DNA from: a virus | Lineage: Duplodnaviria; Heunggongvirae; Uroviricota; Caudoviricetes | Strand: one strand, 5' to 3' | Virus record (IMG/VR): IMGVR_UViG_3300046656_000613 | Coordinates: 30,167 to 94,166 of that record | Length of the DNA stretch: 64,000 nt | Shown: positions 86 to 52,700 of the stretch, piece after piece | Position numbering within the stretch: the first letter of the stretch is position 1 | Layout of the letters: each line of letters starts with the position of its first letter | Made by a program: the position numbers and the translations under genes | The notes under the pieces: generated by a model | Told to the model about the DNA's origin: nothing | The model's input: the letters and a program-made list of their open reading frames with translations, nothing else | Database searches by the model: none

Positions 86-463
86 TCATTGGATTGCCGC
101 GCGCAAATTATCGATATCAGCCCAGATTGATGGCGCATTCTTCTCCAGTCGCGCCAGTCCGGTGCCGATGCCGTCCAGCGGCCAGATGATTGTCCGTCCT
201 CGTTGGGCGGCTTCCATCAGGCGCCGCATCGTCGGCTGCTCGGCCGCAAACCAATTGTCGTAATCATGGTCTGCGAGGAAAGCGTCAGGCTCCATCGACG
301 GCTTGCGCTTGGTAGCGATGCCGATGGCGTTGGGCTCGCCGCGCGCCTCAGCCGCCTGCCCGCCCAGGCCGTGCCGCATCATATTGTCGCCGAACACGAA
401 CAGCCAGTCGGGATGCGCCTTAATATAGGCGCGGGTGTATTTCTTGATGTAAAGCAGCGTCAC
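86..463 (-). CDS. hypothetical phage protein (125 aa)
   Basis: ORF track; sits in the compact minus-strand gene string; motif LFVFGDN; function unknown. Confidence 0.45.
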   Translation of the reverse strand: MTLLYIKKYTRAYIKAHPDWLFVFGDNMMRHGLGGQAAEARGEPNAIGIATKRKPSMEPDAFLADHDYDNWFAAEQPTMRRLMEAAQRGRTIIWPLDGIGTGLARLEKNAPSIWADIDNLRAAIQ

Positions 464-2801: not shown

Positions 2802-3158
2802 TCATTTGCCCGTTTCCCGCATTAACGCCAACTCTGGGTATTCCGTCATCAGCACGCCGACGGCGGCGTACATCGCGTTGCTTCGTGAGACCGCGAGCTG
2901 CGCGGTCAGGGCGGCATCCTGCTCGGTGTACGGCACATACATCTGATTGCCGCGGTAGCACAGCACCCAATGTCGATTCATCTTGTCGAACTTTACCGTC
3001 CAGCGGTCCAGCTCGGCGTAATAAGCCTCCACCATCTGATTAATGAGGGCGGAGGCTTTGTCCACCGTCATGCGGGCGGGGCTGCGGGCGGCGTCAGACC
3101 GGAGAACACCAGCCAGACGATAATCGCCGCGGCAACGCAGCCGGCGAGCGACCACCAC
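2802..3158 (-). CDS. hypothetical protein (118 aa)
   Basis: ORF track. Confidence 0.35.
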   Translation of the reverse strand: MVVARRLRCRGDYRLAGVLRSDAARSPARMTVDKASALINQMVEAYYAELDRWTVKFDKMNRHWVLCYRGNQMYVPYTEQDAALTAQLAVSRSNAMYAAVGVLMTEYPELALMRETGK

Positions 3159-3174
3159 AATTGCGATCGTGTCA

Positions 3175-3480
3175 TCATTGCACTTTCTCCTTTTGCCGCT
3201 TCACTGCGGCTTCCCAGATCTGCTGGATCACGCGCTTCAACGCATTGTTGTGTTTCACGATAAACTCTGCCGCAGTCTCCGGGGTATCGAGCTGCGCATC
3301 CTCGCCGGCCGCCAGGGCAAGCGCGGTGGTCAGGATCGCCAGCCGGGTGTTGGGCTGGAACTCCTGGAGCATATTGCGGATCTCAGCCGCCGCCTGTGCC
3401 GTCCTCGGATCTGCTGTCATGGCCCTGGCCTCCGTCCTGTGCAGTGCAGCCCGTGCTCCGAGCCGCCCTTCATGGTGCAT
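3175..3480 (-). CDS. hypothetical protein (101 aa)
   Basis: ORF track. Confidence 0.35.
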   Translation of the reverse strand: MHHEGRLGARAALHRTEARAMTADPRTAQAAAEIRNMLQEFQPNTRLAILTTALALAAGEDAQLDTPETAAEFIVKHNNALKRVIQQIWEAAVKRQKEKVQ

Positions 3481-3592: not shown

Positions 3593-4141
3593 TTACACCA
3601 CTCCTCCCACAGAGCGCCACTGATCGATGCGTTCCTGCCGCGCCTTGATCACCTCTTCCGATTCCTTGGAAAAAGTCGATGCCTGCACGGCGTAGCCATC
3701 GGGGATATCGTAGGCGGCACGCACCATCGCAGCGCAGACCGCGCGCGGGAGCTGAGCGCGATCGTAATGCGCGGGGGAGCTATAGCGCACCGGCTTACCA
3801 TTCGGGTAATGCCGGGCAGCATTCGACCACGGCAACCCATCGGCGGGGCCAGTCGGGATGATCTCAGCTTGCAGATGGCCGATATGCCACCACCAGTTCT
3901 CGGGGATCAGCATCAGCGCATGAGAGAGATTCGAACTCGGTGACAGCGCGCCGGATGCGCCGGCCTTCAATGCCCTGATCACCGCGGAATCGATATCGTA
4001 ACCATGCCCACCTCGCGCCAGCCGCGAGATCAGCCGGCGCACTTCTGGGTGCGGCAGATCGAGGAAGTCATATTCGGGAGCTTCGGTCACAGCGTACCCT
4101 CCTCGCGCCGCAGCCGCTGCTCGGCAGCAAGCCTCAGCCAA
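3593..4141 (-). CDS. hypothetical protein (182 aa)
   Basis: ORF track. Confidence 0.4.
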   Translation of the reverse strand: MAEACCRAAAAARGGYAVTEAPEYDFLDLPHPEVRRLISRLARGGHGYDIDSAVIRALKAGASGALSPSSNLSHALMLIPENWWWHIGHLQAEIIPTGPADGLPWSNAARHYPNGKPVRYSSPAHYDRAQLPRAVCAAMVRAAYDIPDGYAVQASTFSKESEEVIKARQERIDQWRSVGGVV

Positions 4142-4335
4142 TCGTTGATGGTCTCGCCGTTCTTATCGGCTGATTCCTTGATCCGCCGATGCAGAGATTG
4201 CGAAACATAAGAGTGCATGCCCATCTTATCCTTGCGGTTGGGCTGCACGCGCGACGCGCCATTTTTCTCACCGATCGGCATCACAGCAAAATCCATAGAG
4301 CCAGCAAAACAACGCCCAGCCCGATCATCAGCCAA
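4087..4335 (-). CDS. putative ribbon-helix-helix / HicB-like DNA-binding protein
   Basis: C-terminal SLHRRIKESADKNGETINDWLRLAAEQRL resembles RHH antitoxin-type folds; start uncertain. Confidence 0.35.
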   Translation of the reverse strand: MADDRAGRCFAGSMDFAVMPIGEKNGASRVQPNRKDKMGMHSYVSQSLHRRIKESADKNGETINDWLRLAAEQRLRREEGTL

Positions 4336-19949: not shown

Positions 19950-20024
19950 TGGTCTGCGCGGCCTGGGTCGAACAGGCGGTCTCCTGATCCCAAATCAGGC
20001 GGATTACCTCTTTCCTACGCGCAG
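19950..20024 (-). tRNA. tRNA-Pro (TGG)
   Basis: C1:G72 acceptor CTGCGCG/CGCGCAG; anticodon stem CCTGA/TCAGG with loop TTTGGGA. Confidence 0.75.
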
Positions 20025-20358
20025 CAATAGCAGCGCCCCTCTCGGAGCGTTTACCGTTGATGCTGTCGCGGTCGGAAAGTCCACATAGGTCGAATTCCTT
20101 AAAAGAGTATGAGCCGCTCGCCATTCATCATGTCAGCGAGGAATGAGTCTCTTCCAACAACCGGGGTTGCTAAATTTGCCTCAGCGAGCGGCCCTGAGAC
20201 ATTTCATAGCGCATTATGCAGAAGTGTGCAAGCACCCATCGGCGCCCAAGCCAATAGGGTGTTGATAATTTCAAATTATCGGGGGTGAATTGGACTGGCG
20301 GTTGCGTGCCCGCGCAGTTCTGCATCTTGGGGAAAGATAGCAGGCCCCGACCGTTGGG

Positions 20359-20955
20359 TCAAGCCTGCTCGTGCTCCAGCAGCAATTGCGCCAAAGTGCT
20401 GATCCGCCCCCTGGTGTCGATCAGGTGGTGACTGATGCCGTAATGCTGGCAAAGCTCCGCGCCCATCAGCTCCAGCACCATGCCGGCCTTGGCCGATTGC
20501 GTCTGCGCACCCAGATTGGGCGCGTAGTGCTGGCCAAGCGTGGAGAGCGGCGCGCTCTCGCCGAGCGTGGACACCACCCATTCCAGCGCCAGCTTGAAGA
20601 TCGGCGGCACGGCGAGGATGGCGCGCTCGGTCTCGCGAGCGTAGTGGATGCGCTGTGTCAGATAATCGGCGGAACCATTGGCGCCCGGCGACGTTTTTTC
20701 CCTATAGCCGAACGCTTTGGGAGAGGCATACAGGCCCAGGTAATACTCGCGCAAAAAACGACAAAATGCTGCGTGCGAGTCCGAGCTGATCGTTTTGCGT
20801 CTTTTCAGCTCCTGGAGAACGGGGGAGATGCGCCAATGGCGTTCCTCCCCCGAACCCCATTCCTCGATCCCCAAGCCGGCCTCAGCAGCCCGCAAAATGC
20901 GCTGAGGGGTTGGGCCGATGGATTCCCCCGTCTGCACCTTAGCCCGCACCCCCAT
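20359..20955 (-). CDS. hypothetical protein (198 aa)
   Basis: Internal ATG with SD GGGGAG; the upstream part of ORF 20359..21141 is Arg-rich junk. Confidence 0.4.
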   Translation of the reverse strand: MGVRAKVQTGESIGPTPQRILRAAEAGLGIEEWGSGEERHWRISPVLQELKRRKTISSDSHAAFCRFLREYYLGLYASPKAFGYREKTSPGANGSADYLTQRIHYARETERAILAVPPIFKLALEWVVSTLGESAPLSTLGQHYAPNLGAQTQSAKAGMVLELMGAELCQHYGISHHLIDTRGRISTLAQLLLEHEQA

Positions 20956-21433
20956 CGTTACTCCCCGCCCCCGCATTCCCCTTAACGATCTCGGATTCCA
21001 AAAGACCGTGCAAGTCCATCGACGCCGCAATCGCCGGGAAATCCTCAGCAAACTGTTCGAGCGACCGCCGCGCGAGCTTATGCTGATCTCTCGGGAACAG
21101 CCGCAGCGGCCGATTTGCCGCCCCGGCGATGGAGGTGACAACCTGATGCAGGAACAGCATCGCCCGTCGATACTCCGCCGCCTTCTTCTCGGCCTCGGCG
21201 CGCGCGTTGCGCGCTACGACAATCTCCGGCGCTTCCTTGGGCTGGAGCCAGCCACCGTCCGCAGCCTCGTTGTCCTGGATCGGCGTCGGCTCGCGCGTGA
21301 TGCAATCCGGGCAGATCTGGCTGCCGTTGAAGCTGTCAAAGCCCTGCGCGCACAGCGGACAGATGAACCGACCGACGCGCCCTGACGCGAGGCGCCGGTC
21401 CAGGGGATCAAGCTCGAACACGCCTTGCCTCAT
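20939..21433 (-). CDS. hypothetical zinc-ribbon protein
   Basis: CPLC...CPDC motifs; internal Met start. Confidence 0.35.
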   Translation of the reverse strand: MRQGVFELDPLDRRLASGRVGRFICPLCAQGFDSFNGSQICPDCITREPTPIQDNEAADGGWLQPKEAPEIVVARNARAEAEKKAAEYRRAMLFLHQVVTSIAGAANRPLRLFPRDQHKLARRSLEQFAEDFPAIAASMDLHGLLESEIVKGNAGAGSNDGGAG

Positions 21434-21615
21434 GAACGGTCCACAGCCGCTCCATGCGCTCCTGCTGCGTCTCCTGCCGCGGCACCAGCCCGTAGCGCTC
21501 GCTATCAGCCGCCGCATTGCGCAGCCTGACCAGCACCTCCTGGGTGTAGCCAAGCGTCTCGCAGCTCATGGCCAGCGCCTTGCAGCGCTCCCGGCGATCC
21601 TCTCGCGTCTCCATC

Positions 21616-22191
21616 TCACCCCGCTAGGCTGATAATTTGCGCGTGTAAGGTTGCGTTGGCCCTGGCGTTGCGGACCTGCTCGCGGAAATGCTCCTCGCGC
21701 ATCGGCTGCTGGAGCTTGAGGATCTTCTCCATCAGCTCCGGCACGCTCTCGGGCGGCAGGATGATCTGCTTGCGCACCACGGGCGCGAAGTGAACAAAGT
21801 CATCGATTCGCTTCGGCCGATCAATGGGCCGCATTTGCGGATAGGGATCAACGGGGCGCCAGCGCATGTCGTCAACGCCGAATGCTTGCCGCGTAAAGAT
21901 CTGCCGGCCCATGCGATCGACCTTCAGGCCAGTAGTGCGGGTAGGGGCGCCGTCCCATCCACCATGATATGGGTCAAGCAGGCGGCGATAATTCCACTTC
22001 TCAGCATAGGTGATGCCGCGAATGTCGCTTTCCTCATGCTGGAAGGCCACCGTCAGCTCATCGCGCTCGAAATGCTCGCTGGCGCTGATTTGCCAGCCAT
22101 GGTGCGCCAGCCGCAGCGTGTCGGTCTCCCACCCCATCCAGTGGATCGGGATGGGCTCGGACAAGGTGTATTGTCCAAGCCCCGACGGCAT
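21616..22191 (-). CDS. hypothetical protein (191 aa)
   Basis: ORF track. Confidence 0.4.
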   Translation of the reverse strand: MPSGLGQYTLSEPIPIHWMGWETDTLRLAHHGWQISASEHFERDELTVAFQHEESDIRGITYAEKWNYRRLLDPYHGGWDGAPTRTTGLKVDRMGRQIFTRQAFGVDDMRWRPVDPYPQMRPIDRPKRIDDFVHFAPVVRKQIILPPESVPELMEKILKLQQPMREEHFREQVRNARANATLHAQIISLAG

Positions 22192-22394
22192 TAGCGAGCC
22201 TGCGCGCGCAGATCGCGCTGAAGCGCTGCGTATTCCAGCTCCAGATTGGCGACAATGCGCTTGGCATCAGCGATCTGGCGCAGCTTGCCCAGGAGCTGCC
22301 GGGTGGCTCCCTTGCTGAGTTCCTCGGCCATTTCCTTCTCGGCCTGGGCAATTGCCGCCGTGATCGGATCGATGGAAGTGATATTGTCGGTCAT
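22191..22394 (-). CDS. small coiled-coil protein (67 aa)
   Basis: Internal ATG; heptad-like sequence. Confidence 0.3.
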   Translation of the reverse strand: MTDNITSIDPITAAIAQAEKEMAEELSKGATRQLLGKLRQIADAKRIVANLELEYAALQRDLRAQAR

Positions 22395-22502
22395 GTCTCG
22401 CCTTGCTTCATAAAAACGCCGTCCGAGGTCTCCCCCGAACGGCGCCGCGTGCCCGCGTCTTGGAAACCAGAGCACAAATCTATGATCACGGCACCATGCC
22501 GA

Positions 22503-22841
22503 TCACCGTGAAACCCTAGCCGCCCGCGCCCGCCGCTTCAAGCGCTTTTTGCGTAGTGCACGGATCAGGAGCTTGTCGCCAGCGGGAATATAATAATTGC
22601 AAATTTCGCAATCTCCCTCGCGCAGCTCCCAGCTTCCGTTCTGCCGGCGCAGCGGCGGCGGCAATTCCTCGTGCTCAAAAAACTGGCATGTGTAGACTTC
22701 GGGGCACACCTCAATTTTTGGCTTGAGATGCGGCTGATTATCCTCAAATGGGATAAATTCAATTTCTTGAACTTGGCGTGCAAAAGCACATGTGCCGAGC
22801 CTGCTCATGTCATCCCTACCTAGCCCGCCATACCAAGCCAC
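22503..22841 (-). CDS. hypothetical Cys-containing protein
   Basis: ORF track; start borders the repeat tract. Confidence 0.3.
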   Translation of the reverse strand: MAWYGGLGRDDMSRLGTCAFARQVQEIEFIPFEDNQPHLKPKIEVCPEVYTCQFFEHEELPPPLRRQNGSWELREGDCEICNYYIPAGDKLLIRALRKKRLKRRARAARVSR

Positions 22842-23462
22842 GACTTGCCCAACCGAACCATACCACGCCCGCCACGCCTAGCCTAACCGGAACCAGCCCT
22901 GCCTCAACCAGACTCGCCCCGCCTCGCCTGCCATGCCTTGCCGTGCCGAAGCTTGCCCTACCCTGCCCGCCCTACCCGGCCTTGCCAGAACAGGCCAAGA
23001 CCTACCGCGCCAGAACTCACCATACCAAGCCTGCCTTACCAGGACATGCCTCGCCGCACAATACCATGCCGCGCCATGCCTGCCGTGCCCTGCCTTAACG
23101 CACCATGCCTCGCCGGGCCTTGCCTAGCCCGCCTTGCCTTAACTTGCCAAGCCCTGCCCTGCCTCACCCGCCCTGCCATGCCTGCCCGGCCGAGCCAGAA
23201 CCCGCCGCGCCTTACCATATCATGCCTGCCCAGCCCCAACCTGCCGAGCAGCACCGAACCCTGCCACGCCAGCCTTAACACGCCTTGCCCCGCCGCGCCT
23301 TGCCCTGCCATGCCTGCCCCGCCGAGCCGCGCCCTGTCCTGCCGCGCCGTGCCATGCCTGCCGCGCCACGCCGTAACGGAACGAGCCTTGCCGCACCCCG
23401 CCTGCCCTGCCGGGCCAGAACAAAACCAACCGGACCCCACCGTGCCTAGCCTGCCCTGCCAA
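22842..23462. repeat. 620-bp degenerate hexamer-repeat tract: (C/A)(C/A/T)TGCC on plus, GGCA(A/T/G)G on minus
   Basis: About 50 copies of CCTGCC, CATGCC, CTTGCC and CCAGCC-type units; longer recurring words CCAGAAC (4 copies) and CCTTAAC (3 copies); unit period not a multiple of 3. Confidence 0.8.
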
Positions 23463-23921
23463 TCAGTCCGCGCCCTTCAGTGCAAAATATCGGGCTAATT
23501 TTGCATGAAGCTGCTCGGCCTGCTTGAGGATATCTTGCTGATACGCTTCATCAAGATGCCGCTCGGAAACAATGCGATTCATCGGAATCCAGGTTTCCCT
23601 GACGAATTCGACTGCGCGCACCTCGATCACCCTATTGCGAACAACATGGGGCACGATCAAGCTGGACACAACCTTGCGCGCGAATTCCATTCGGCCACGC
23701 GTCGCCCAAGCCTCATCTCCATCGGACCAAAAAGCCTCGTGCAAAACATGCGACGGATCTTTTGATGCGTGAAAAAGCTTTTCAGGAGAATGGGCGCCAG
23801 CCTCCTGCATGGACCGCCACACCGCGACGGCGGAAACCCCCTTGGGGGCATGAAAGCCGTCCGCCCAGCGAACGGCCTCATCGCCCTCCACGGGCTTTAG
23901 ATATGATGTTCCTGCCGCCAT
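23463..23921 (-). CDS. hypothetical protein (152 aa)
   Basis: ORF track. Confidence 0.4.
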   Translation of the reverse strand: MAAGTSYLKPVEGDEAVRWADGFHAPKGVSAVAVWRSMQEAGAHSPEKLFHASKDPSHVLHEAFWSDGDEAWATRGRMEFARKVVSSLIVPHVVRNRVIEVRAVEFVRETWIPMNRIVSERHLDEAYQQDILKQAEQLHAKLARYFALKGAD

Positions 23922-24586
23922 ACCAGAAAATCTCCTTCATTGACCACGCGAAACGTACCGCAGTCCCCGTCTTTCTCGGGGCGGTAATCACCAATGCCAA
24001 CACCGTGGCCGGCTGCATCAAACATCGTCATCATCTGCTCGATGCTGATCACTTGCGGATTCAGGCTGACGTTCAATTCCACGCCCCAGGTAGAATACTC
24101 CGGCCGATAGCGCATCTCAGGCGGCCGGCCGGGGCCAGACAGCCGCGCGACGTCCTCACGCATAACAGGCGCCTTGGCAATCAGGGGCACCAACGCAGTA
24201 CGCACGAATGAGCCCTCAAGAACACCGGGCCTATCCATGGAAATGCCGCTGACGCGAAACGCCTGCCGCGCTGCGACCTTGGTGATATCGGAGAGCGATG
24301 TGCAAGCTGTCACTGCGGCGGCCTTGAAGCCGATTGCCGGGAACCCATCACCAGCATGGGGCTCCGGGAGCGGATAGCGCGACGCCTCCATTTCGGCGTA
24401 AGGATCGCGCGCGTCCCGGCCACCCTTGGCGATCTTGCGCTGCTTATCGAGCATCTCTTTCCGGGCTTTCTCGGGAAAGGCGTGGACGATGAGCGGGGCG
24501 GTGCCGATCAGAAACACCTTAACTTCTTGCACTTTAAAATCGGGCAGGGTAATGGTTCCGCCGACGGCGGGTTTTGCCTTCACCAT
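23897..24586 (-). CDS. hypothetical protein (229 aa, starts MVKAKP)
   Basis: Internal Met; the N-terminal LLLLLL segment of the longer ORF is rejected. Confidence 0.4.
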   Translation of the reverse strand: MVKAKPAVGGTITLPDFKVQEVKVFLIGTAPLIVHAFPEKARKEMLDKQRKIAKGGRDARDPYAEMEASRYPLPEPHAGDGFPAIGFKAAAVTACTSLSDITKVAARQAFRVSGISMDRPGVLEGSFVRTALVPLIAKAPVMREDVARLSGPGRPPEMRYRPEYSTWGVELNVSLNPQVISIEQMMTMFDAAGHGVGIGDYRPEKDGDCGTFRVVNEGDFLVWRQEHHI

Positions 24587-24682
24587 ATCTGTTCTCCACA
24601 GCAGATTTCTATCGTCAGGGGGCGTTGGCGCGCCCTCTGATAATTTCGTTGTAGAGTGACATAGCAATAATAGCAAGAGCAA

Positions 24683-25474
24683 TTACGCGAAGCGGCGCCG
24701 GGCCTTAAAAGCGCTCCCGATGGTCTTGAGCGATTCCTTGCGCGACAGGCCGATCGATGCCGCGGCCTGGGCGAGCATCTCGGCGGTGGCCTCATCGGCG
24801 TAGCCGCCTTCCGCAGCCCGACAGGCCGCCCAATACAGACAGGAATTGCGCTGGCTCTCGGCGGCGTTGGTGACAAACTTCGCCAGCCCTGACAAGGCAG
24901 CGTTGGCGTCGCGAATGCCTTCCTTGCGGACGAAGACGGCATTCTCCTTGGGCTTGAGCGCCATGCTCGCCCAGATCGGCATGCGCGCGATATCCGCTCC
25001 CAAGGGCGCGAGATGCCAGCGATAGAAGCGCCCGCCATCGAGCACGCTCGGCGGCGCCACGACATAGCCCCCGGTGGTGCGGATGTCGATCCCCTTCCCC
25101 AGCAGCGACTTGGAATTCAGCACCTGCGGCACGTAGCCGTAATAAAGGTGCCAGCCCCCCGACGGCGTGCGCGCGCTGACCGTCGGCTTGAAGATTCGGC
25201 CGAGCGCCTTCATCTGCCGCACCGTGTCATTCGATCCGGCCTTGGGATCTAAATCAACGACAGTCAGCCCCGACACCGCGCCGCAGGCGATGCCAACATT
25301 GGCGTGCGGGAAGCGGCGCGCCCATTCCCGAATCTGATCCAGGCTCTTGGAGGCATCGAGCACGCCCTGGCCGCCCGCCTTCTTCGAGATCGCCGGCAAC
25401 TTCGAGCCCGGCGACAGCGGGAACACGGCCCAATCCAACTCCAGCAACCGCTGCGCTGCATCCAGAAATTTCAT
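24683..25474 (-). CDS. bifunctional DNA primase/polymerase (PrimPol-like)
   Basis: Resemblance to the archaeo-eukaryotic primase PrimPol N-domain (AVFPLSPGSKLP, ANVGIACGAVSGLTVVDLDPK, GGWHLYY) of phage/plasmid replication proteins. Confidence 0.55.
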   Translation of the reverse strand: MKFLDAAQRLLELDWAVFPLSPGSKLPAISKKAGGQGVLDASKSLDQIREWARRFPHANVGIACGAVSGLTVVDLDPKAGSNDTVRQMKALGRIFKPTVSARTPSGGWHLYYGYVPQVLNSKSLLGKGIDIRTTGGYVVAPPSVLDGGRFYRWHLAPLGADIARMPIWASMALKPKENAVFVRKEGIRDANAALSGLAKFVTNAAESQRNSCLYWAACRAAEGGYADEATAEMLAQAAASIGLSRKESLKTIGSAFKARRRFA

Positions 25475-25477
25475 GGC

Positions 25478-26578
25478 TCAATCCTTCCAGATGTCCTTGA
25501 CCTGCTCGGTCGCGTAAGCGTCATATTCCATATGGAAATTTGCGGTGTCGAACCGCGAAGCCACCGTGCCGCGGATGCCCATTTTCTCCTCCACCTTGGA
25601 CTTATCCAGGCGCCAGATCGTATGGCCGCGGGTGGCCTCCCATTTCTTGCTGCGCACAATGCACAGGCCGCGATCGGCCTTGTTGCCGAAATTGCCCGAG
25701 CCGAAACTGTGCGCGATCTTGAACGGCTGAATGCTGCCGTCGCCGTTGATCATTTTTGCCGGGACGTGGGTGCCAATCGCGCTGATGATCCGGTTCGTAT
25801 CCACGGACCGTCGGAACATTCGCATGGCATCGCGAATGTATTCGGTCTCGATCTGCCTGACGTCCTTTTTGTGATCCATCTCGTTCCATGGATCAAGGAC
25901 GTGAAAAAGCGCGTTATACTTGCGCGTATAGAAATCGACCAGCTCGATATACCAGTCAACTTGGCGATCCTTATCTGGAGCACGACAGACGTAATGGATT
26001 CTGTCAAGCATATGATCGAGATTCGCCTTGTAGAGGTGCTCGTAATACTTGATGAAACGCTCCAGATTGCGCCGCATGTCGGCCGCCTCGTCTTCCCAGG
26101 CGCAGATCAGCGCCGAGCAATCGCCCAGCTCAGCACCGTTGACCCTGACGAACTGAAACGCCAATTGCTGCAAAACGGTGGACTTGCCCGAGGCGTAGGG
26201 GCCAGCCACAACCATCAGCTCGCGCAGACGCCACCGCCATCCCAAGTTCTTATCCAGGAACCCGATTCCCGAGGGGTAGGTCTGGAAAGTGTCGGCACTC
26301 GGCGCCCGGCGCAGCGACTGTGCGTCCCTGAAAAACAGGTGCCTGACCCGATTGCCATCATCGGATGAGCAGATCGACACCCGGCTGGCTGGCAGCCCCT
26401 GCCCGACCAGCTTCCAGGCTTCGGCCTCGACGCCTTCGAGGACAGTGCCGACAAGAACCAGATCACGGTCTCCGAGGATGTCCGGCCCCAGCTCATTGAG
26501 CGAGACATGCTGTTGCTCGGCCCTGTCGAGGGCTTCGTGAGCGGCGAGGTTGATTGTGACAAAGAGACGATCGGTCAC
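25478..26578 (-). CDS. P-loop NTPase, replicative helicase-like
   Basis: Walker A AGPYASGKST, Walker B-like VLDPWNE; lies between the PrimPol-like gene and the replication-initiator gene. Confidence 0.6.
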   Translation of the reverse strand: MTDRLFVTINLAAHEALDRAEQQHVSLNELGPDILGDRDLVLVGTVLEGVEAEAWKLVGQGLPASRVSICSSDDGNRVRHLFFRDAQSLRRAPSADTFQTYPSGIGFLDKNLGWRWRLRELMVVAGPYASGKSTVLQQLAFQFVRVNGAELGDCSALICAWEDEAADMRRNLERFIKYYEHLYKANLDHMLDRIHYVCRAPDKDRQVDWYIELVDFYTRKYNALFHVLDPWNEMDHKKDVRQIETEYIRDAMRMFRRSVDTNRIISAIGTHVPAKMINGDGSIQPFKIAHSFGSGNFGNKADRGLCIVRSKKWEATRGHTIWRLDKSKVEEKMGIRGTVASRFDTANFHMEYDAYATEQVKDIWKD

Positions 26579-27579
26579 AGCAGCGCTCCGACATACGAAC
26601 CATTGGCAGAATAGTTGGACTGACGCTTGCCTCCGCGCTCATAGCCGCCCTCCATCAGCCGAACGAAGCTTTTCGACTGAAGCAGGAAATCGAAATCAGC
26701 TTTCCAGCCCCGTTCGTTGTCGCCAAGCAGGAAGCCGGACTTCTCGACCTTGGCCATCACCTCCAAGAATTTCTGAAGTGAACCGGCATCCCTGATCCGG
26801 GCGACAATGGCCGCGCCACGGGTGGTCGTGAGCTTCTCCATCTTCGCCAATCCGCAGCGTCCGGCCAGTTCGTTCCAGGCCCTAGCGACGATGCGCGCCG
26901 CCTCGATCGCATCGATCATTTTTGGCGCCTCGACGGGAGGGGCGTCAGACGGCCCGGATGACGAGTCCTCGTTAGAGGACTTCTTCTCTAAGGGAATGGG
27001 AATGGGAATGGGAAGCATTGCCGTCGCATCCTCTGCGACCTTGATTTTATTGACTTTTTTCGCTGTCTTTCGCGGAAGTTTGCTCGAAGTTTGGGGCAAA
27101 CTTGGCTCAAACTTGGCGGAAACTTCCTCGGAACTGCGGTTTGCCTGCCAGCGCGCATGGGCATTTGCGGCAGCCTGTTTGATACGCTCGGCCCGCTTAA
27201 TTCGCTCCCGCTCGAAGCGGGCATTTGTCAGACAGCCGGCGCGAATAATCACCTTCCCGGCCGACACCAGGACTTCCTTAATCCGCTTCCAGACGCGCAG
27301 CGACAGGCCCATGGAAACCGACATAAAGCGGTCATCATCCGGCAGGGGCTTTCCACGCTGATAGAGGCGATTGAGGAACCGGCAATAGGCGCCCTCCAGC
27401 TCCAGGCTGAGACCCATGGTCCCGCCGAGCCAGTCGCCGATGTGCCAGTCAATATGATGGAATTGGACGATCTCGTCGGGACTCGAAACAGACGAGTCAA
27501 CAGGTTCCCCAGACTCTGTGGGAAACACGTGTGAAACAGGGCTTGCATCCATTAGGGAGCGCATGTATATATACCCCAT
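26575..27579 (-). CDS. phage replication initiation/organizer protein
   Basis: N-terminal YCRFLNRLYQRG motif as in DUF1376-type replication proteins; contains a PIPIPIP run from a (GGAATG)3 tandem repeat. Confidence 0.45.
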   Translation of the reverse strand: MGYIYMRSLMDASPVSHVFPTESGEPVDSSVSSPDEIVQFHHIDWHIGDWLGGTMGLSLELEGAYCRFLNRLYQRGKPLPDDDRFMSVSMGLSLRVWKRIKEVLVSAGKVIIRAGCLTNARFERERIKRAERIKQAAANAHARWQANRSSEEVSAKFEPSLPQTSSKLPRKTAKKVNKIKVAEDATAMLPIPIPIPLEKKSSNEDSSSGPSDAPPVEAPKMIDAIEAARIVARAWNELAGRCGLAKMEKLTTTRGAAIVARIRDAGSLQKFLEVMAKVEKSGFLLGDNERGWKADFDFLLQSKSFVRLMEGGYERGGKRQSNYSANGSYVGALL

Positions 27580-49768: not shown

Positions 49769-52700
49769 CTATTCCCCGATCACCGGACCATACAGATCGC
49801 TGACGTCGGCATCCTTGCGCTGGCTATTGATGCGCTCGCGCACCTTGCCCCAGACCTTGGCGAGGTGCTTGCCGTCCTGGACCTTCTCCTTCTTCATCCG
49901 GCGCAGCATCTCATCATAGACTTCCGGGGCGCCGGCTTTGAGCACCTTCAGCCGGGCGTCCACATCCATCAGCTTCTGCTGGCCCCAGCCGTCGATCCCC
50001 ATGATCTGGAGGGCGTTCTGGGCCATGCCCTTGCGAATGTGCGCAATCTCATTGCGGGCAAAGCGCATCTGCTCGCGGTCCATCTTCTTGCGCGCCTCGC
50101 CCTTCTCGTCCTTGTCCTGGATCAGCTCGCCGGTGACGATCTCCTTCATGATCGCGTTGGTGATCTTGACGGATTCGCTGGCGTTGATCATCGGATGCAG
50201 ATTGCGATATTTGCCCTTGGTGCGGCCCTTGAAGTCATTCTCCAGCACCGCGAAGGCGCGCTGATCCGGGTTAATCTGGCCGAGGAATTCCGAGGCCCGA
50301 ATGCTGTTCTCACCGCCCGAGTCGATCATCTTTTTGTAGGTGTTCGAGGCCGAGTGGAATGAGCGCGCGTCCTCGCTGACCGTATCCCAGAACCACTTGT
50401 TCAGCCCCTCGCCGTCGGTCATCATATTGTAGAACTTCGACAGCGAGTTCGAGGTTTTGCCTGCATTGTAAGTGAACCGGCGCGCCACCGGGTATTCTGC
50501 GATCGACGGCATCGGCCCCTCGCCAAGCGCCGCATCCAGGCCAGACGCTGCGTCCTGGCCCACCGAGGTGGTCAGATTGCGGATCAGGAAGTCCGCATAA
50601 TACGGCGACATGTTGAGCGCTTCGCCGATCTGCTTGGCCGCCCATGAGGTGTACGGGCCGAACTGCTGCTGACGCTCAACCTCCTCGGGGCCTTTCTCCC
50701 AGATCGGCACGATGTCGTTGCCGGAATACATATCCTTTCCTGACGCGAAACCATAAACCAGATCCAGCGCCGAGATCGAATGCGGCGGCAGCAGCGTGGT
50801 GAAGAAGTCGCTGACCATGCCGGCCGCCGCGCGCGGATCGTGATCGACCAGATAGTCCCAGCTCCGCTCGACCGCATTGGCGAACCATGCGATTTCGAAG
50901 GGCTTGGGAATGCGCATCATCCAATCGGTCTTCTCATCCTCGCCGGCCAGGAAGACGCGCATGTCTTTGGGCAGCAGGTACAGCACGCCATTGAGCGACA
51001 GCCGCCAATGGGTGGCGCGCACGCTGTCCGGCACCTCCTTCATGTCGTCATCGTCGGCACCCAGCATGCAGAACAGCAGCGACAGGCCGCCGAGCACGAC
51101 GGTGGAGATCATCCACGCCTTGCCGGCCTGCCCGAGCGCGCGCTGCTCATTGACCGACAGCGGCAGGCCACGGCTGTGCCGATCCCAGATCTGGATCAGG
51201 TTGCCGTAGTCATTGGCGCCGGTCATGGTCTTGGCATATTTGTAGACACCCTGGAGCGCGGCATTGAAGAACGGGATGACGCGCCGGAAGGCTTCGGTTT
51301 TTGAGCCGTGCTGGCTGAAGTCCATCACGTCATGAGCGTAGTGCCCGGCCTCGATCGCCGCCTCGAACTCGGTCATGCCGTCGGCCTGGGCAGATAGCAT
51401 GGCGTTGCGGAAGATGCCAACGCGGGTGGCGGTCTCAGAGAATTCGCCAACCTGGAACACCAGCTTGACCAGATCCTTGATGCTACGCGGCACCCGCACA
51501 TTGAAGCCGCGCAAGCGCAGCCCCTCGATGTCGCGCTGGATCGACTGATCCGTGAGCGAGGCGTGGCCGGCGCCACCCATCATGCCGGCGTAGCGGTTAT
51601 ACAGATGCAGATAGGGTCCGCCGCGGACGATCTCGCGCATGCCGCGCGCCTGGGTGAGAAATGGCCGAGCATAGGGCGAGTTCACCCAGGACGCGATCGA
51701 GTCGGTGATGATGTTGCGGATCATGAAGCCGAACGAGAAGGTCACGCCGGTGCGCACCACGCTGGTGGTGATGGCCATGGCGTCCATAAGCTGACCCATA
51801 TTGCGCTGGCCGACGGCAGTCAGACCCTCGAACATCATCTGCCCGAGCGTGCCATCGGGGAGCTGCGCCGGGATCGGCTTGCCGTTCTCGAAGAACCAGA
51901 CGATCTTCTCGCCCTTCTCATTGGCCTGCGCCTGGGTGAACATGGTCGTGACCACGTTCTGGCCGATCTGGGTCTCGACATTGGCGAGCATGATCGCAGT
52001 GTCCTGCGCCGTCATGCCGGCCGCGCGCGCCGCCTGCCGGAGCTGCTCGCGAATCCGCACTTCGACCGCCCGTGCCTCGGTGGGCGGCAGCCGCTCGAAG
52101 ATCTCGTTGCCCGCCTGCCCGGCCTGCCGGGCGATGCGATCCATAGCGCGCAGCGTGTCATTGATCGCGGCGCGCAGCCGGATCTCGAACATGGTCTGCA
52201 CTGTGGACTGGATCGGGTTGATGATATCGCGCATCGAGCCTTCGAGCTGGCGATAGACATCATACTTATTGATCTTGTCGCGCCCACGTCCCGGCCGCTT
52301 CGAGGTGGCATCCGTGCCATCCACCGTCTCGCGATCGGACATGTTGCGCTGGAACGGACAGTAATCCCGGTCCTGCTGGTACTCATTGCGCTCATCGAGG
52401 GTGATCAGACCCTTCTCGTACATCAGCTCGATGATGTCTTTGTTGAAGCGATAATACAGCTCGGCCGCCTGCCGGAACTGCGGGTTCTGTTGCTCATGGC
52501 GCAGCAGCCGATTGAGGTGCTCATACAGCGCCTCGGCGGTCGGTGGATTGGCCAGATCCGAGACGGTGTTGGTCGGCAGCCGCTGGAGCAGGAATGCCAT
52601 CTGCGGGTTGGCGGCCACGAACTGCTGGATCTGCACACGGAACTGCGGCCGATAGCGGACATAGAGCAGGATCGCGCGCCGGCTGATCAGATAGTCGCCG

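What the first reader, a model, noticed from the sequence alone, without database searches (positions are those of the whole stretch)
22842..23462. 620-bp degenerate hexamer-repeat tract between two minus-strand genes
A long run of CCTGCC, CATGCC, CTTGCC and CCAGCC units (GGCAGG, GGCATG, GGCAAG on the other strand) is interspersed with recurring 7-mers CCAGAAC and CCTTAAC. The period is not a multiple of three, so the long ORFs across it on both strands are almost certainly translation artefacts (Pro/Cys-rich or Gly/Arg-rich). It lies upstream of gene 22503..22841. Such dense low-complexity arrays could act as protein-binding iterons or a centromere-like site, a replication or recombination hotspot, or a transcriptional insulator.
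Basis: seen in the sequence. Interest (0 to 1): 0.65.

Follow-up and report, generated by a model that had tools for sequence, protein, structure and literature searches.

The report
Phage VIPR guide-RNA repeat array
The odd repeat tract is a chain of about 14 guide RNAs built from five-base GGY-NN units, lying just behind the small CRISPR-like (RAMP) protein that reads them; it is a new example of the phage "VIPR" RNA-guided DNA-silencing systems first described in 2026 preprints, not an unknown kind of element.

Summary
The tract is real (window about 22816-23474), but its period is 5 bases, not 6. On the minus strand, which is the strand of the flanking genes, it reads (GGY-NN)n. There are 132 units: G1 98%, G2 85%, Y3 100%, and N4 and N5 are essentially random. 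One-base phase slips (GGCA|GGCAT) cut it into about 14 modules of 8-13 units, including five consecutive 44-nt modules.

This matches the VIPR systems of bioRxiv 10.64898/2026.04.26.720920, specifically their tail-less "staggered" vrRNA arrays. Two relatives with identical Vipr share only the edge modules of their arrays, so guides turn over quickly.

No natural target was found, so what it silences is unknown. The DNA-iteron/centromere idea is not supported. The call that the ORFs are artefacts is right. Verdict: a new member of a very recently described kind.

The parts
23897..24586 (-). vipr: 229-aa minimal RAMP (Cas7-like) protein, identical to P0001. The 261-aa TTG ORF 23897..24682 is the mechanical ORF; the ATG at 24586 (MVKAKP...) is the start called in public assemblies.
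23463..23921 (-). vap-like accessory gene, 152 aa, overlapping the end of vipr by 25 nt. Its function is unknown.
22816..23474 (-). vrRNA array: about 132 GGY-NN pentamers with no spacers or tails between them, forming about 14 modules.
   Evidence: Information per position is 1.89, 1.27, 1.13, 0.20 and 0.04 bits. 110 of 132 units are GGY and 127 of 132 are G[G/T]Y. GC skew is -0.40 on the + strand. There is no Rfam hit and no more RNA structure than in shuffles (z = -0.05).
23403..23451 (-). module M1 (10 units, 49 nt)
   Evidence: Segmentation at 4-nt units.
23359..23402 (-). module M2 (9 units, 44 nt)
23315..23358 (-). module M3 (9 units, 44 nt)
23271..23314 (-). module M4 (9 units, 44 nt)
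23227..23270 (-). module M5 (9 units, 44 nt)
23183..23226 (-). module M6 (9 units, 44 nt)
23130..23182 (-). modules M7 (3 units, 14 nt, probably a remnant) and M8 (8 units, 39 nt)
23081..23129 (-). module M9 (10 units, 49 nt)
23032..23080 (-). module M10 (10 units, 49 nt)
22968..23031 (-). module M11 (13 units, 64 nt)
22929..22967 (-). module M12 (8 units, 39 nt)
22870..22928 (-). module M13 (12 units, 59 nt)
22826..22869 (-). module M14 (9 units, 44 nt)
22503..22841 (-). Downstream Cys-rich small ORF: 112 aa from the GTG inside the array, or 101 aa from the ATG at 22808. It is possibly associated with the system, but membership is uncertain.
   Evidence: Its only homologue among the fetched loci (L002 5427-5726, 55% identical) also lies directly after a GGYNN array, the small one upstream of vipr. 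It has no Pfam, PHROG or PADLOC hit.

Best explanation
The tract is the guide-RNA (vrRNA) array of a phage-encoded VIPR system (Viral Interference Programmable Repeat; bioRxiv 10.64898/2026.04.26.720920 and 10.64898/2026.04.26.720927).

Shown here:
- A minimal RAMP-fold protein homologous to Vipr (23897-24586, minus strand) and a conserved 152-aa partner gene (23463-23921, minus strand) are followed on the same strand by about 132 GGY-NN pentamers.
- GGY is conserved and NN is free.
- One-base phase slips (GGCR|GGCAT) divide the array into about 14 modules of 8-13 units.
- The same three-part module recurs in distant phages.
- Module content turns over between near-identical phages.

Inferred by homology to the SUSP1 and P. 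fulva experiments and the cryo-EM structures:
- The array is transcribed with vipr and vap from the minus strand and resolved at the slip junctions into about 40-65-nt vrRNAs (a 'staggered' array).
- One Vipr protomer binds each pentamer. G1 is read by H35 and D200, G2 by R161 and Y201, and Y3 sits in the R202 pocket.
- The filament displays the NN dinucleotides, which pair with double-stranded DNA that carries the same dinucleotides separated by one skipped base (a 3-nt, codon-like register).
- Binding forms an R-loop/triplex that blocks transcription of a competing phage, prophage or satellite.

Neither vipr nor the 152-aa partner gene shows a recognisable nuclease or helicase domain, so silencing is more likely than cleavage. 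The targets of these guides are not known.
For: (1) Repeat anatomy equals the published vrRNA definition, which is tandem YNNGG / GGY-NN with 9-16 units per vrRNA and internal degeneracy common. Here there are 132 units with position information of 1.89, 1.27, 1.13, 0.20 and 0.04 bits. Modules hold 8-13 units.

(2) The phase slips fit the paper's 'staggered vrRNA arrays', in which individual vrRNAs derive from positions that overlap by 1 nt (legend of fig. S18). Module lengths are 39, 44, 49, 59 and 64 nt, which is 5k-1. The same GGCA|GG junction is found in Saal, UmaThurman and all alphaproteobacterial relatives.

(4) There is sequence homology to the Vipr of the experimentally studied Suspvirus clade (tblastn E about 1e-3 against the database, pairwise E 2e-10). 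The SUSP2 locus shows GGTNN vrRNAs with tails, as published. The residues reported to contact G1, G2 and Y3 (H17, R138, D177, R179) are invariant, and W178 becomes Y.

(5) Co-occurrence. The order vipr, about 150-aa gene, same-strand GGYNN array is present in all eight relatives whose fetched contig reaches past the about-150-aa gene: L002, L003, L004, L005, L007, L030, L031 and L033, plus the prophage L034 (which carries the same two modules as L005). In L006 the contig ends before an array could appear. Saal has the array upstream of vipr, and UmaThurman has it directly downstream of vipr.

(6) Guide-like evolution. L002 and L003 encode the identical Vipr and are 99.6% identical through vipr, vap and the first 125 nt of the array. 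The array interior is then unalignable apart from one module, after which identity resumes. Shared modules keep NN 100% identical while GGY varies between C and T.

(7) There is no self-target in the 64-kb window under any skip rule (best 14-15 of 18-20 bases), as reported for VIPR.

(8) The context is a phage: an O-like initiator, a DnaB-like ATPase, Prim-Pol, RecT, NinB, a Bro/ANT antirepressor and a large polyvalent protein.
Against: - There are no expression or processing data for this locus. The module boundaries are inferred from phase slips only, and the paper did not confirm staggered arrays by sRNA-seq.
- No natural target was found. Seven exact xNN scans of public collections were run: five with window modules (three of viral contigs, one of metagenomes, one of genomes) and two with Saal modules (viral contigs). 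A local scan of 55 modules against 194 kb of related loci was also run. All gave only chance-level matches, and the 1-nt skip rule was not enriched over skips of 0, 2 or 3.
- No conserved structured 3' tail follows the modules, unlike the characterised type II vrRNAs.
- 17% of units depart from GGY, mostly to GTY. In SUSP1, GGY>GAY and GGY>AGY substitutions abolished silencing (fig. S12 legend).
- The partner gene is not similar to SUSP2's partner gene, and its fold is unassigned.
- The VIPR type (I-VII) could not be assigned, because the figures and data tables are not held.
- No sigma-70-like promoter or intrinsic terminator was detected on the minus strand near the array.
Confidence: 0.88

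Rival explanations
1. DNA-level protein-binding array (iterons, a centromere-like parS, an origin or an insulator): a phage DNA-binding protein coats the double-stranded repeats in cis.
For: The tract lies at the end of the replication module: O-like initiator, helicase, Prim-Pol. It is dense with short repeats.
Against: - Only 3 of 5 bases per unit are conserved, and there is no longer repeated consensus.
- The orientation relative to the RAMP gene is fixed in all relatives.
- In relatives the module sits in quite different neighbourhoods, next to capsid or portal genes, an integrase, or a repressor, so it travels with the RAMP gene and not with a replication module.
- The interior is replaced wholesale between phages that are 99.6% identical. 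That fits variable guides, not a cis site that must match a fixed binding protein.
- There is no partition ATPase, and no Pfam HTH or RHH domain was detected in the two adjacent genes.
Confidence: 0.03
2. R-loop or G-quadruplex-forming element. The G-rich non-template strand, with GG every 5 nt, forms a stable R-loop or two-tetrad G4s on transcription and serves as a replication primer site or a recombination hotspot, like ColE1 or Ig switch regions.
For: There is strong strand asymmetry: on the transcribed-sense strand G is 48% and C is 21%, with GC skew -0.40. A Prim-Pol gene lies 1.2 kb upstream. Ig switch regions are also pentamer repeats (general knowledge).
Against: This does not explain the strict G-G-Y versus free N-N pattern, the -1 slip modules, the obligatory RAMP neighbour, or the occurrence in loci that lack any replication genes nearby. 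The G-richness follows automatically from the GGY scaffold.
Confidence: 0.03
3. A decayed array, or a decoy array. The repeats derive from a VIPR array but no longer make working guides, or they act as a sponge for a competitor's Vipr.
For: 17% of units are degenerate, there is a 3-unit remnant module (M7), and no targets were found.
Against: - The vipr and partner genes are intact, and the key residues are conserved.
- 83% of units are canonical GGY, and internal degeneracy is described as usual for vrRNAs.
- Relatives carry equally long arrays.
- Failure to find targets is expected for an uncultivated phage whose competitors are poorly sampled.
Confidence: 0.04
4. Protein-coding low-complexity gene: a Pro/Cys-rich protein of 186 aa on the + strand, or Gly/Arg-rich proteins of 134 and 80 aa on the - strand.
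For: Long ORFs are open on both strands. Equivalent tracts are annotated as CDS in some actinophage records, for example UmaThurman gp40 and BobaPhett gp51.
Against: The period is 5 nt with no 3-nt signal. Frequent 4-nt units shift the frame. There are no family hits. There is no conserved frame or sequence in relatives that are 99.6% identical in the flanks.
Confidence: 0.01

Closest known systems
VIPR systems with 'staggered' vrRNA arrays (bioRxiv 10.64898/2026.04.26.720920, fig. S18)
   Same: A phage-borne minimal RAMP (Vipr) plus a small accessory gene plus tandem GGY/NN pentamers. Adjacent vrRNAs follow each other without tails and overlap by 1 nt, which here shows up as a -1 phase slip every 8-13 units.
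   Different: The figure and data tables could not be read, so identity with the published example or type is not verified. This array is long (about 14 modules, about 660 nt). It shows a conserved GGCR|GGCAT junction and recurrent GTY units, neither of which is mentioned in the text available. The paper did not validate staggered arrays experimentally.
Type II VIPR of Escherichia phage SUSP1 and the P. fulva prophage (experimentally characterised; cryo-EM in 10.64898/2026.04.26.720927)
   Same: A homologous Vipr, sharing the motif RYRP...W...AG..G(V/I)GD(W/Y)RP and the H, R, D and R contacts to GGY. The pentamer code is the same. The layout is a two-gene operon plus flanking non-coding RNAs. 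The setting is a phage.
   Different: SUSP-type vrRNAs are separate units of about 100 nt, each with a conserved pseudoknotted 3' tail, and use GGT-rich units (seen in SUSP2). Here the units are GGC-rich, there are no tails, and the modules are contiguous. This Vipr is 229 aa against 195 aa, and similarity is detectable only over the C-terminal third. The accessory genes are unrelated.
Class 1 CRISPR-Cas backbone (Cas7/Csm3/Cmr4 filament on crRNA)
   Same: A RAMP fold with a G-loop and a thumb. One protomer binds per fixed RNA step, and the thumb interrupts pairing periodically. An array of variable guides turns over quickly.
   Different: There are no 23-50-nt identical repeats alternating with spacers. 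No cas, nuclease or helicase domain was found in the nine neighbouring genes scanned. The step is 5 nt with only 2 informative bases, instead of 6 nt with 5. The target is read in a gapped register. The system is carried by the virus.
Iterons and parS centromere repeats of plasmids and phages
   Same: Many short direct repeats in an intergenic region next to replication genes.
   Different: Iterons and parS are 13-22-bp near-identical double-stranded DNA sites bound by Rep or ParB. Here only GGY is conserved, the strand is fixed relative to a RAMP gene, and the content is hypervariable.

Membership tests
VIPR system (Vipr + vrRNA) | A RAMP-fold Vipr protein (RRM core, glycine-rich loop, thumb), about 20 kDa, encoded next to the repeats | tested here: met
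VIPR system (Vipr + vrRNA) | Homology to experimentally characterised Vipr, with conservation of the GGY-contacting residues (SUSP1 H17, R138, D177, W178, R179) | tested here: met
   The comparison was with SUSP2 gp040, a Suspvirus relative whose numbering matches. Pairwise E is 2e-10 over the C-terminal 46 aa. H, R, D and R are invariant, and W becomes Y (aromatic kept) in the window clade while remaining W in Saal (residue roles). SUSP1 itself was not fetched.
VIPR system (Vipr + vrRNA) | Tandem GGY/NN (YNNGG) pentamers, at least 4 units, near vipr | tested here: met
   There are 132 units, of which 110 are GGY and 127 are G[G/T]Y, on the same strand as vipr.
VIPR system (Vipr + vrRNA) | GGY conserved while NN is hypervariable, within arrays and between related loci | tested here: met
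   Information is 1.89, 1.27 and 1.13 bits at GGY against 0.20 and 0.04 bits at NN. No window module is shared with any relative. L002 and L003, with identical Vipr, share only 2-3 modules.
VIPR system (Vipr + vrRNA) | Individual vrRNAs of 9-16 repeats | tested here: inconclusive
   Modules delimited by -1 slips hold 8-13 units here and 7-13 units (one of 17) in relatives. This fits, but the real RNA ends are unknown.
VIPR system (Vipr + vrRNA) | An invariant structured 3' tail after each repeat tract (type II architecture) | tested here: not met
   There is no spacer or tail between modules and no conserved sequence after the arrays of relatives. Folding is no better than for shuffles. This is not a universal VIPR feature: tail-less staggered arrays are described. 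It argues against type II specifically.
VIPR system (Vipr + vrRNA) | An adjacent accessory gene (vap) forming a minimal two-gene locus | tested here: met
   A 152-aa gene overlaps the end of vipr. Its homologues hold the same position in 9 relatives and in Saal. Which of vap1-6 it is, and whether it binds DNA, remain undetermined.
VIPR system (Vipr + vrRNA) | A non-CRISPR context (no CRISPR array, no other cas genes), usually viral or proviral | tested here: met
   The neighbours are phage replication and recombination genes. Tandem-repeat and Rfam scans of a few kb around the tract show no CRISPR repeats, and PADLOC gave no hit for vipr, the partner gene or orf112. Relatives lie in phage contigs or in a prophage next to an integrase.
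VIPR system (Vipr + vrRNA) | vrRNAs are expressed and co-purify with Vipr | not testable with these tools
   This needs sRNA-seq and a pull-down.
VIPR system (Vipr + vrRNA) | Natural targets that match the NN string with a 1-nt skip (xNN), typically in competing phages, with no self-targets | tested here: inconclusive
   There is no self-target. Exact scans of the viral, metagenome and genome collections, and a mismatch-tolerant local scan, gave only chance-level hits, with skip 1 not enriched. A mismatch-tolerant search of large collections was not possible.
CRISPR-Cas (class 1) | Identical 23-50-nt direct repeats alternating with unique spacers; cas1/cas2 or an effector cas operon | tested here: not met
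   Only 5-nt units are present, and no cas gene families were found in the neighbouring genes scanned.
Iteron / parS DNA-binding repeat arrays | Several near-identical copies of a 13-22-bp site, with the cognate Rep or ParB encoded nearby | tested here: not met
   No such consensus exists. Only GGY is conserved, and module content is replaced between near-identical phages.

The most novel reading that the evidence does not exclude
In this Vipr clade (alphaproteobacterial, mycobacterial and Gordonia phages) the guides are not separate genes with tails. They form one continuous multi-guide transcript whose units are delimited only by a conserved -1 phase slip (GGCR|GGCAT). That junction would serve two roles. 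It would be the ruler or processing mark for Vipr filament assembly. It would also be the micro-homology at which whole guide modules are swapped between phages. The result would be a CRISPR-like, rapidly renewable repertoire without Cas1/Cas2, as suggested by L002 and L003, whose arrays differ completely in the interior between flanks that are 99.6% identical. The GTY units that recur at module positions 4-9 (mostly 5-8) could be a second structural signal.
Probability: 0.3. Interest if true: 0.6.

Novelty: new member of a known kind. Interest (0 to 1): 0.45.

Why it matters
VIPR is a months-old discovery: an RNA-guided DNA-recognition system with a gapped, codon-like code, proposed to be older than CRISPR. 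This window adds a well-resolved natural example of its least-characterised architecture.
- It is a tail-less 'staggered' array of about 14 guides, in an alphaproteobacterial phage.
- The same architecture and junction occur in cultured, genetically tractable SEA-PHAGES actinophages (Saal and other Cheoctovirus phages; Gordonia phage UmaThurman). There the arrays are unannotated or mis-annotated as proteins, so processing, targeting and guide turnover could be tested directly.
- For annotation pipelines, long C-rich or G-rich 5-nt-periodic 'low-complexity' tracts next to a roughly 200-250-aa hypothetical gene should be called vrRNA arrays, not ORFs.
- For this phage, the element is probably a weapon against competing phages or prophages whose identity remains to be found.

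Tried and rejected
- Rfam at E <= 1 on 20000-27000 gave no family.
- The sigma-70 promoter and intrinsic-terminator scan found nothing on the minus strand around the array, so the transcription unit is only inferred.
- RNA folding of six modules gave z = -0.05 against shuffles, so there is no structured element.
- Pfam, PHROGs and PADLOC for vipr, the partner gene, orf112 and the tract ORFs returned only phrog_4652 (unknown function) for vipr and a marginal hit to phrog_15946 (unknown function, E 0.0013) for the partner gene.
- Target search within the window showed no self-target under skips 0-2.
- Target search in collections used exact xNN scans with:
  - module M3 in viral contigs: 0 hits;
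  - a seed from M11: 17 hits, and a seed from M13: 3 hits; extension was at chance and the best hit lay in AT-rich contigs;
  - M9 in metagenomes: 1 hit, not in an ORF;
  - M10 in genomes: 2 hits in organisms of 32-36% GC, in unrelated genes;
  - Saal modules S2 and S3 in viral contigs: 0 hits.
- A scan of 55 modules from ten arrays against 194 kb of related loci showed no enrichment of skip 1 over skips 0, 2 or 3.
- The search for related loci in genome contigs returned nothing because of the pattern chosen.
- The afdb50 fold library was unavailable, so the paper's seed UniProt entries could not be matched directly.
- The paper's supplementary tables are not held, so no type assignment was possible.
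- Two other weak 'chains' of GGY in the window (343-419 and 54161-54225) are ordinary coding sequence.
- Considered before the literature hit and dropped as primary explanations: a TRAP-like or CsrA-like RNA sponge, a Rho rut site on the antisense C-rich strand, and an Ig-switch-like R-loop.
Full report
OBSERVATION

Reading 22300-23900 shows a C-rich tract on the + strand between two minus-strand ORFs, 23463..23921 and 22503..22841.

The tract does not have a hexamer period. Base autocorrelation peaks at lag 5 (0.555) and its multiples, with troughs at lags 2, 3, 7 and 8. Against shuffles the lag-5 value has z = 14, and the twelve best 200-nt windows in the whole 64 kb all lie in 22751-23500.

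A dynamic-programming segmentation gives 122 units of 5 nt and 16 units of 4 nt. On the + strand the unit is NN[G/A][C/A]C: 89 of 139 units end in GCC, 22 in ACC and 13 in AAC. On the minus strand, the strand of both flanking genes, the unit is GGYNN. Over 132 units:
- G1 is 130 of 132;
- position 2 is G in 112 and T in 17;
- position 3 is C in 94 and T in 38;
- positions 4 and 5 carry 0.20 and 0.04 bits.

Its 7-mers CCAGAAC and CCTTAAC are the degenerate units GTTCT and GTTAA plus the GG of the following unit.

The + strand is 48% C and 21% G, with GC skew -0.40.

There is also a higher-order period at lags 44, 39, 49 and 88. It arises because every 8-13 units one unit has only 4 nt (GGCA or GGCG, usually followed by GGCAT). 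This shifts the phase by -1 and divides the array into about 14 modules of 39, 44, 49, 59 or 64 nt. Five consecutive modules of exactly 44 nt start at 23402, 23358, 23314, 23270 and 23226.

The array begins at the stop codon of the upstream gene, at about 23474. It ends at about 22816, just before an ATG at 22808 of the downstream ORF. An independent assembly (Logan, SRR26075051) is 100% identical over 2690 nt, including 566 nt of the tract.

SURROUNDINGS

The minus-strand gene row upstream is a phage replication module:
- an O-like/DnaD-like initiator with DUF1376 (26575..27579);
- a DnaB/KaiC-like ATPase (25478..26578);
- Prim-Pol (24683..25474).

These are followed by a protein with only a PHROG of unknown function (23897..24682; the real start is at 24586, giving 229 aa) and a 152-aa ORF with only a marginal match (E 0.0013) to another PHROG of unknown function.

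Elsewhere the window has RecT, NinB, an exonuclease, a Bro-N/ANT antirepressor and a 3299-aa large polyvalent protein with LPD38 and Ros/MucR domains. The element is therefore a phage or prophage, probably of an alphaproteobacterium. The closest named relative of the 229-aa protein is in Fodinicurvata sediminis.

Rfam finds nothing. The consensus promoter and terminator scan finds nothing on the minus strand near the tract.

THE LEAD

A sensitive blastn of 21600-25500 against 50,697 phage records hit only inside the tract. All hits were to Cheoctovirus mycobacteriophages: Saal, BobaPhett, Gorge, SwagPigglett, DRBy19, James and Mattes.

Saal carries a 250-nt intergenic run of the same NNGCC pentamers, including the TGCC-ATGCC slip. 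It lies between genes 50 and 51 and is oriented so that the transcript reads GGCNN. Saal gp51, which abuts that run, is 35% identical (E 2e-26) to the window's 229-aa protein. Saal gp52 is homologous to the window's 152-aa protein (E 9e-8).

A protein pair plus a repeat array, shared between an actinophage and a proteobacterial phage, pointed to a functional module.

A full-text search for 'pentanucleotide repeat' with 'phage' then returned a 2026 preprint describing exactly such a module.

WHAT IS KNOWN

The following is taken from the papers, read.

VIPR systems (bioRxiv 10.64898/2026.04.26.720920) consist of:
- Vipr, a minimal RAMP protein of about 20 kDa with an RRM core, a G-loop and a thumb;
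- usually one accessory gene (vap);
- vrRNAs made of 9-16 tandem YNNGG (GGY/NN) pentamers.

GGY is conserved and NN is hypervariable. The NN dinucleotides read double-stranded DNA with one skipped base between them, usually the codon wobble position. Binding silences transcription. Natural targets are competing phages, prophages and satellites, and no self-targets were found.

Seven types exist. Array architectures include tailed vrRNAs (type II: SUSP1 and P. fulva), hammerhead-interspersed arrays, single vrRNAs, and 'staggered arrays' in which adjacent vrRNAs overlap by 1 nt. The staggered arrays were not among the architectures confirmed by sRNA-seq.

The companion cryo-EM paper (10.64898/2026.04.26.720927) shows one Vipr protomer per repeat. 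G1 is read by H17 and D177. G2 is read by R138 and W178. Y3 sits in a pocket that includes R179.

TESTS OF MEMBERSHIP

(b) Sequence. tblastn of the protein against phages hits 158 records. Mycobacterium and Gordonia phages score E 1e-19 to 1e-26. About 110 Felixounavirus and Suspvirus phages, including SUSP2, score E about 1e-3 over residues 158-227.

In SUSP2 the hit is gp040 (195 aa; pairwise E 2e-10). It is followed by a 146-aa gene and flanked by GGTNN repeat RNAs with tails, which is the published type II layout.

In a joint alignment, SUSP2 positions H17, K30, Y137, R138, W144, G170, G174, G176, D177, R179 and P180 are invariant in the window protein and Saal gp51. W178 is Y in the window clade (GDYRP) and W in Saal. 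In the window protein these correspond to H35, R161, D200, Y201 and R202.

(c) Association. Every relative whose fetched contig reaches past the about-150-aa gene has the order vipr, about 150-aa gene, same-strand GGYNN array:
- L002, L003 and L004 (81% identical protein; arrays of about 600-690 nt; L002 and L004 also have a 123-nt array upstream of vipr);
- L005 and L007 (about 100 nt);
- L030, L031 and L033;
- L034, a Fodinicurvata sediminis prophage beside an integrase, which carries the same two modules as L005.

L006 has vipr and part of the partner gene, but the contig ends there.

Gordonia phage UmaThurman has a 62-unit array directly after its vipr homologue. All of these arrays show the same GGCA|GG slip junction and modules of length 5k-1.

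The protein family is large. There are 3,876 50%-identity representatives at E <= 1e-3 and 2,093 at E <= 1e-10.

(d) Variability. None of the window's modules matches a module of any relative at >= 80% NN identity.

L002 and L003 encode the identical Vipr. Their DNA is 99.6% identical through vipr, the partner gene and the first about 125 nt of the array. The array interiors (about 460 and 550 nt) are unalignable except for one 58-nt module. Identity then resumes at 93-99%.

In the shared modules NN is 100% identical while a few GGY positions differ. This is what is expected if NN carries the information.

TARGETS

Applying the published rule (replace GGY by one wildcard), no site in the 64-kb window matches any module better than 14-15 of 18-20 bases under skips 0, 1 or 2. 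This agrees with the reported absence of self-targeting.

Exact-pattern scans of public collections gave only chance-level results:
- viral contigs with module M3: 0 hits;
- a seed from M11: 17 hits;
- a seed from M13: 3 hits;
- metagenomes with M9: 1 hit;
- species genomes with M10: 2 hits.

Extension into the remaining units was random. The best case (22 of 26 bases) lies in AT-rich contigs, and the genome hits are in organisms of 32-36% GC, in unrelated genes.

Two Saal modules gave no exact hit in viral contigs.

A mismatch-tolerant scan of 55 modules from ten arrays against 194 kb of the related loci showed no excess for skip 1 over skips 0, 2 or 3.

The targets therefore remain unknown. 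The tools allowed only exact matching in the large collections, and the competitors of an uncultivated phage may not be sampled, so this result is inconclusive rather than negative.

MECHANISM (most likely)

Shown: the anatomy of the array, the RAMP fold and the Vipr homology of the neighbouring protein, the conserved three-part module, and guide-like turnover.

Inferred:
- The array is co-transcribed with vipr and its partner gene.
- The transcript is resolved at the slip junctions into vrRNAs of 8-13 pentamers.
- One protomer binds per pentamer.
- The NN string reads DNA in an xNN register.
- Binding represses transcription in a competing mobile element.

Silencing is favoured over cleavage because neither vipr nor its partner gene shows a recognisable nuclease or helicase domain.

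RIVALS

A DNA iteron or centromere array, an R-loop or G4 element, a decayed or decoy array, and a low-complexity protein were each considered. None explains all four of the following together:
- the G-G-Y against N-N information pattern;
- the fixed strand relative to a RAMP gene across phyla;
- the mobility of the module between quite different genomic neighbourhoods;
- the wholesale replacement of the interior between near-identical phages.

COMPARISON AND NOVELTY

It works like, and by the tests above is a member of, the VIPR family. Architecturally it corresponds to the 'staggered' arrays mentioned in the preprint, not to the characterised type II.

It is therefore a new member of a known, though months-old, kind.

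Possibly new details are the conserved GGCR|GGCAT junction, the GTY units that recur at positions 4-9 (mostly 5-8) within modules, the cassette-like turnover, and the presence of the same architecture in cultured actinophages, where the arrays are unannotated or annotated as proteins.

VERDICT

Confidence that this is a VIPR vrRNA array is 0.88. Interest is 0.45.

Noticed in passing
L001 (Mycobacterium phage Saal NC_023580) 3939-4205; L039 (Gordonia phage UmaThurman KU963251) 3089-3407: Cultured SEA-PHAGES actinophages carry the same vipr-like gene plus a staggered GGYNN array, in the early or immunity region. In Saal it lies between genes 50 and 51, near the repressor, antirepressor and Xis genes. 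In UmaThurman it lies after gp39, near the integrase and repressor genes. The arrays are unannotated in Saal, and are annotated as 'hypothetical protein' CDS in UmaThurman (gp40) and apparently in BobaPhett (gp51), Gorge (gp53) and DRBy19 (gp51).
   Followed up: partly
L002 7254-7715 versus L003 1386-1935: Two metagenomic phages with identical Vipr protein and flanks 99.6% identical have array interiors that cannot be aligned, apart from one shared 58-nt module. Only the first two to three modules and the last module are common. This looks like cassette-style replacement of guides.
   Followed up: yes
L002 5357-5479 (also L004 1946-2068): A second, small GGYNN array of 21 units lies upstream of vipr, between the DnaB-like gene and a homologue of the window's orf112. 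It is partly called as a 47-aa gene in the public gene calls.
   Followed up: partly
window 22503-22841 (-): This is a Cys-rich small ORF (CPEVYTC...CEIC) whose proposed GTG start lies inside the array; an ATG at 22808 is the alternative start. Its only homologue among the fetched loci (L002 5427-5726) also lies immediately after a GGYNN array. It may be a further accessory gene or a coincidence.
   Followed up: partly
window 22816-23474 (-), units within modules: Seventeen of 132 units have T instead of G at position 2 (GTT x13, GTC x4). They fall at units 4-9 of a module, mostly units 5-8, never at either edge. The same GTY units recur in relatives' arrays. In SUSP1, changing G1 or G2 of GGY to A abolished activity; a T at position 2 was not among the substitutions reported. 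The tolerance or role of these units is unexplained.
   Followed up: no
window 22816-23474 (-), positions 4 and 5 of the units: N4 is purine-rich (A 45%, G 27%) while N5 is nearly even. If the skipped base is the wobble position, this resembles codon position 1 of sense strands, which hints that most guides have the sense of their target genes. Part of the bias comes from the conserved AG and AT at module edges.
   Followed up: no
window 49769-59668 (-); L030 12712-20696; L034 1-8694: The window and two relatives that carry the vipr module each encode a giant 'large polyvalent protein' of 3299, 6336 and 3983 aa, with LPD38 and other LPD domains. The window's copy also has a Ros/MucR domain. 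The VIPR-bearing phages sampled may therefore belong to one broader group.
   Followed up: no
L008 (Escherichia phage SUSP2 NC_028935) 1790-1990 and 3180-3400: The SUSP2 intergenic regions flanking gp040 and gp039 hold GGTNN repeat tracts, each followed by a similar tail (GGGTAGTTA...CAGCTAC...). These match the published SUSP1 vrRNA description. They are unannotated in the record.
   Followed up: partly
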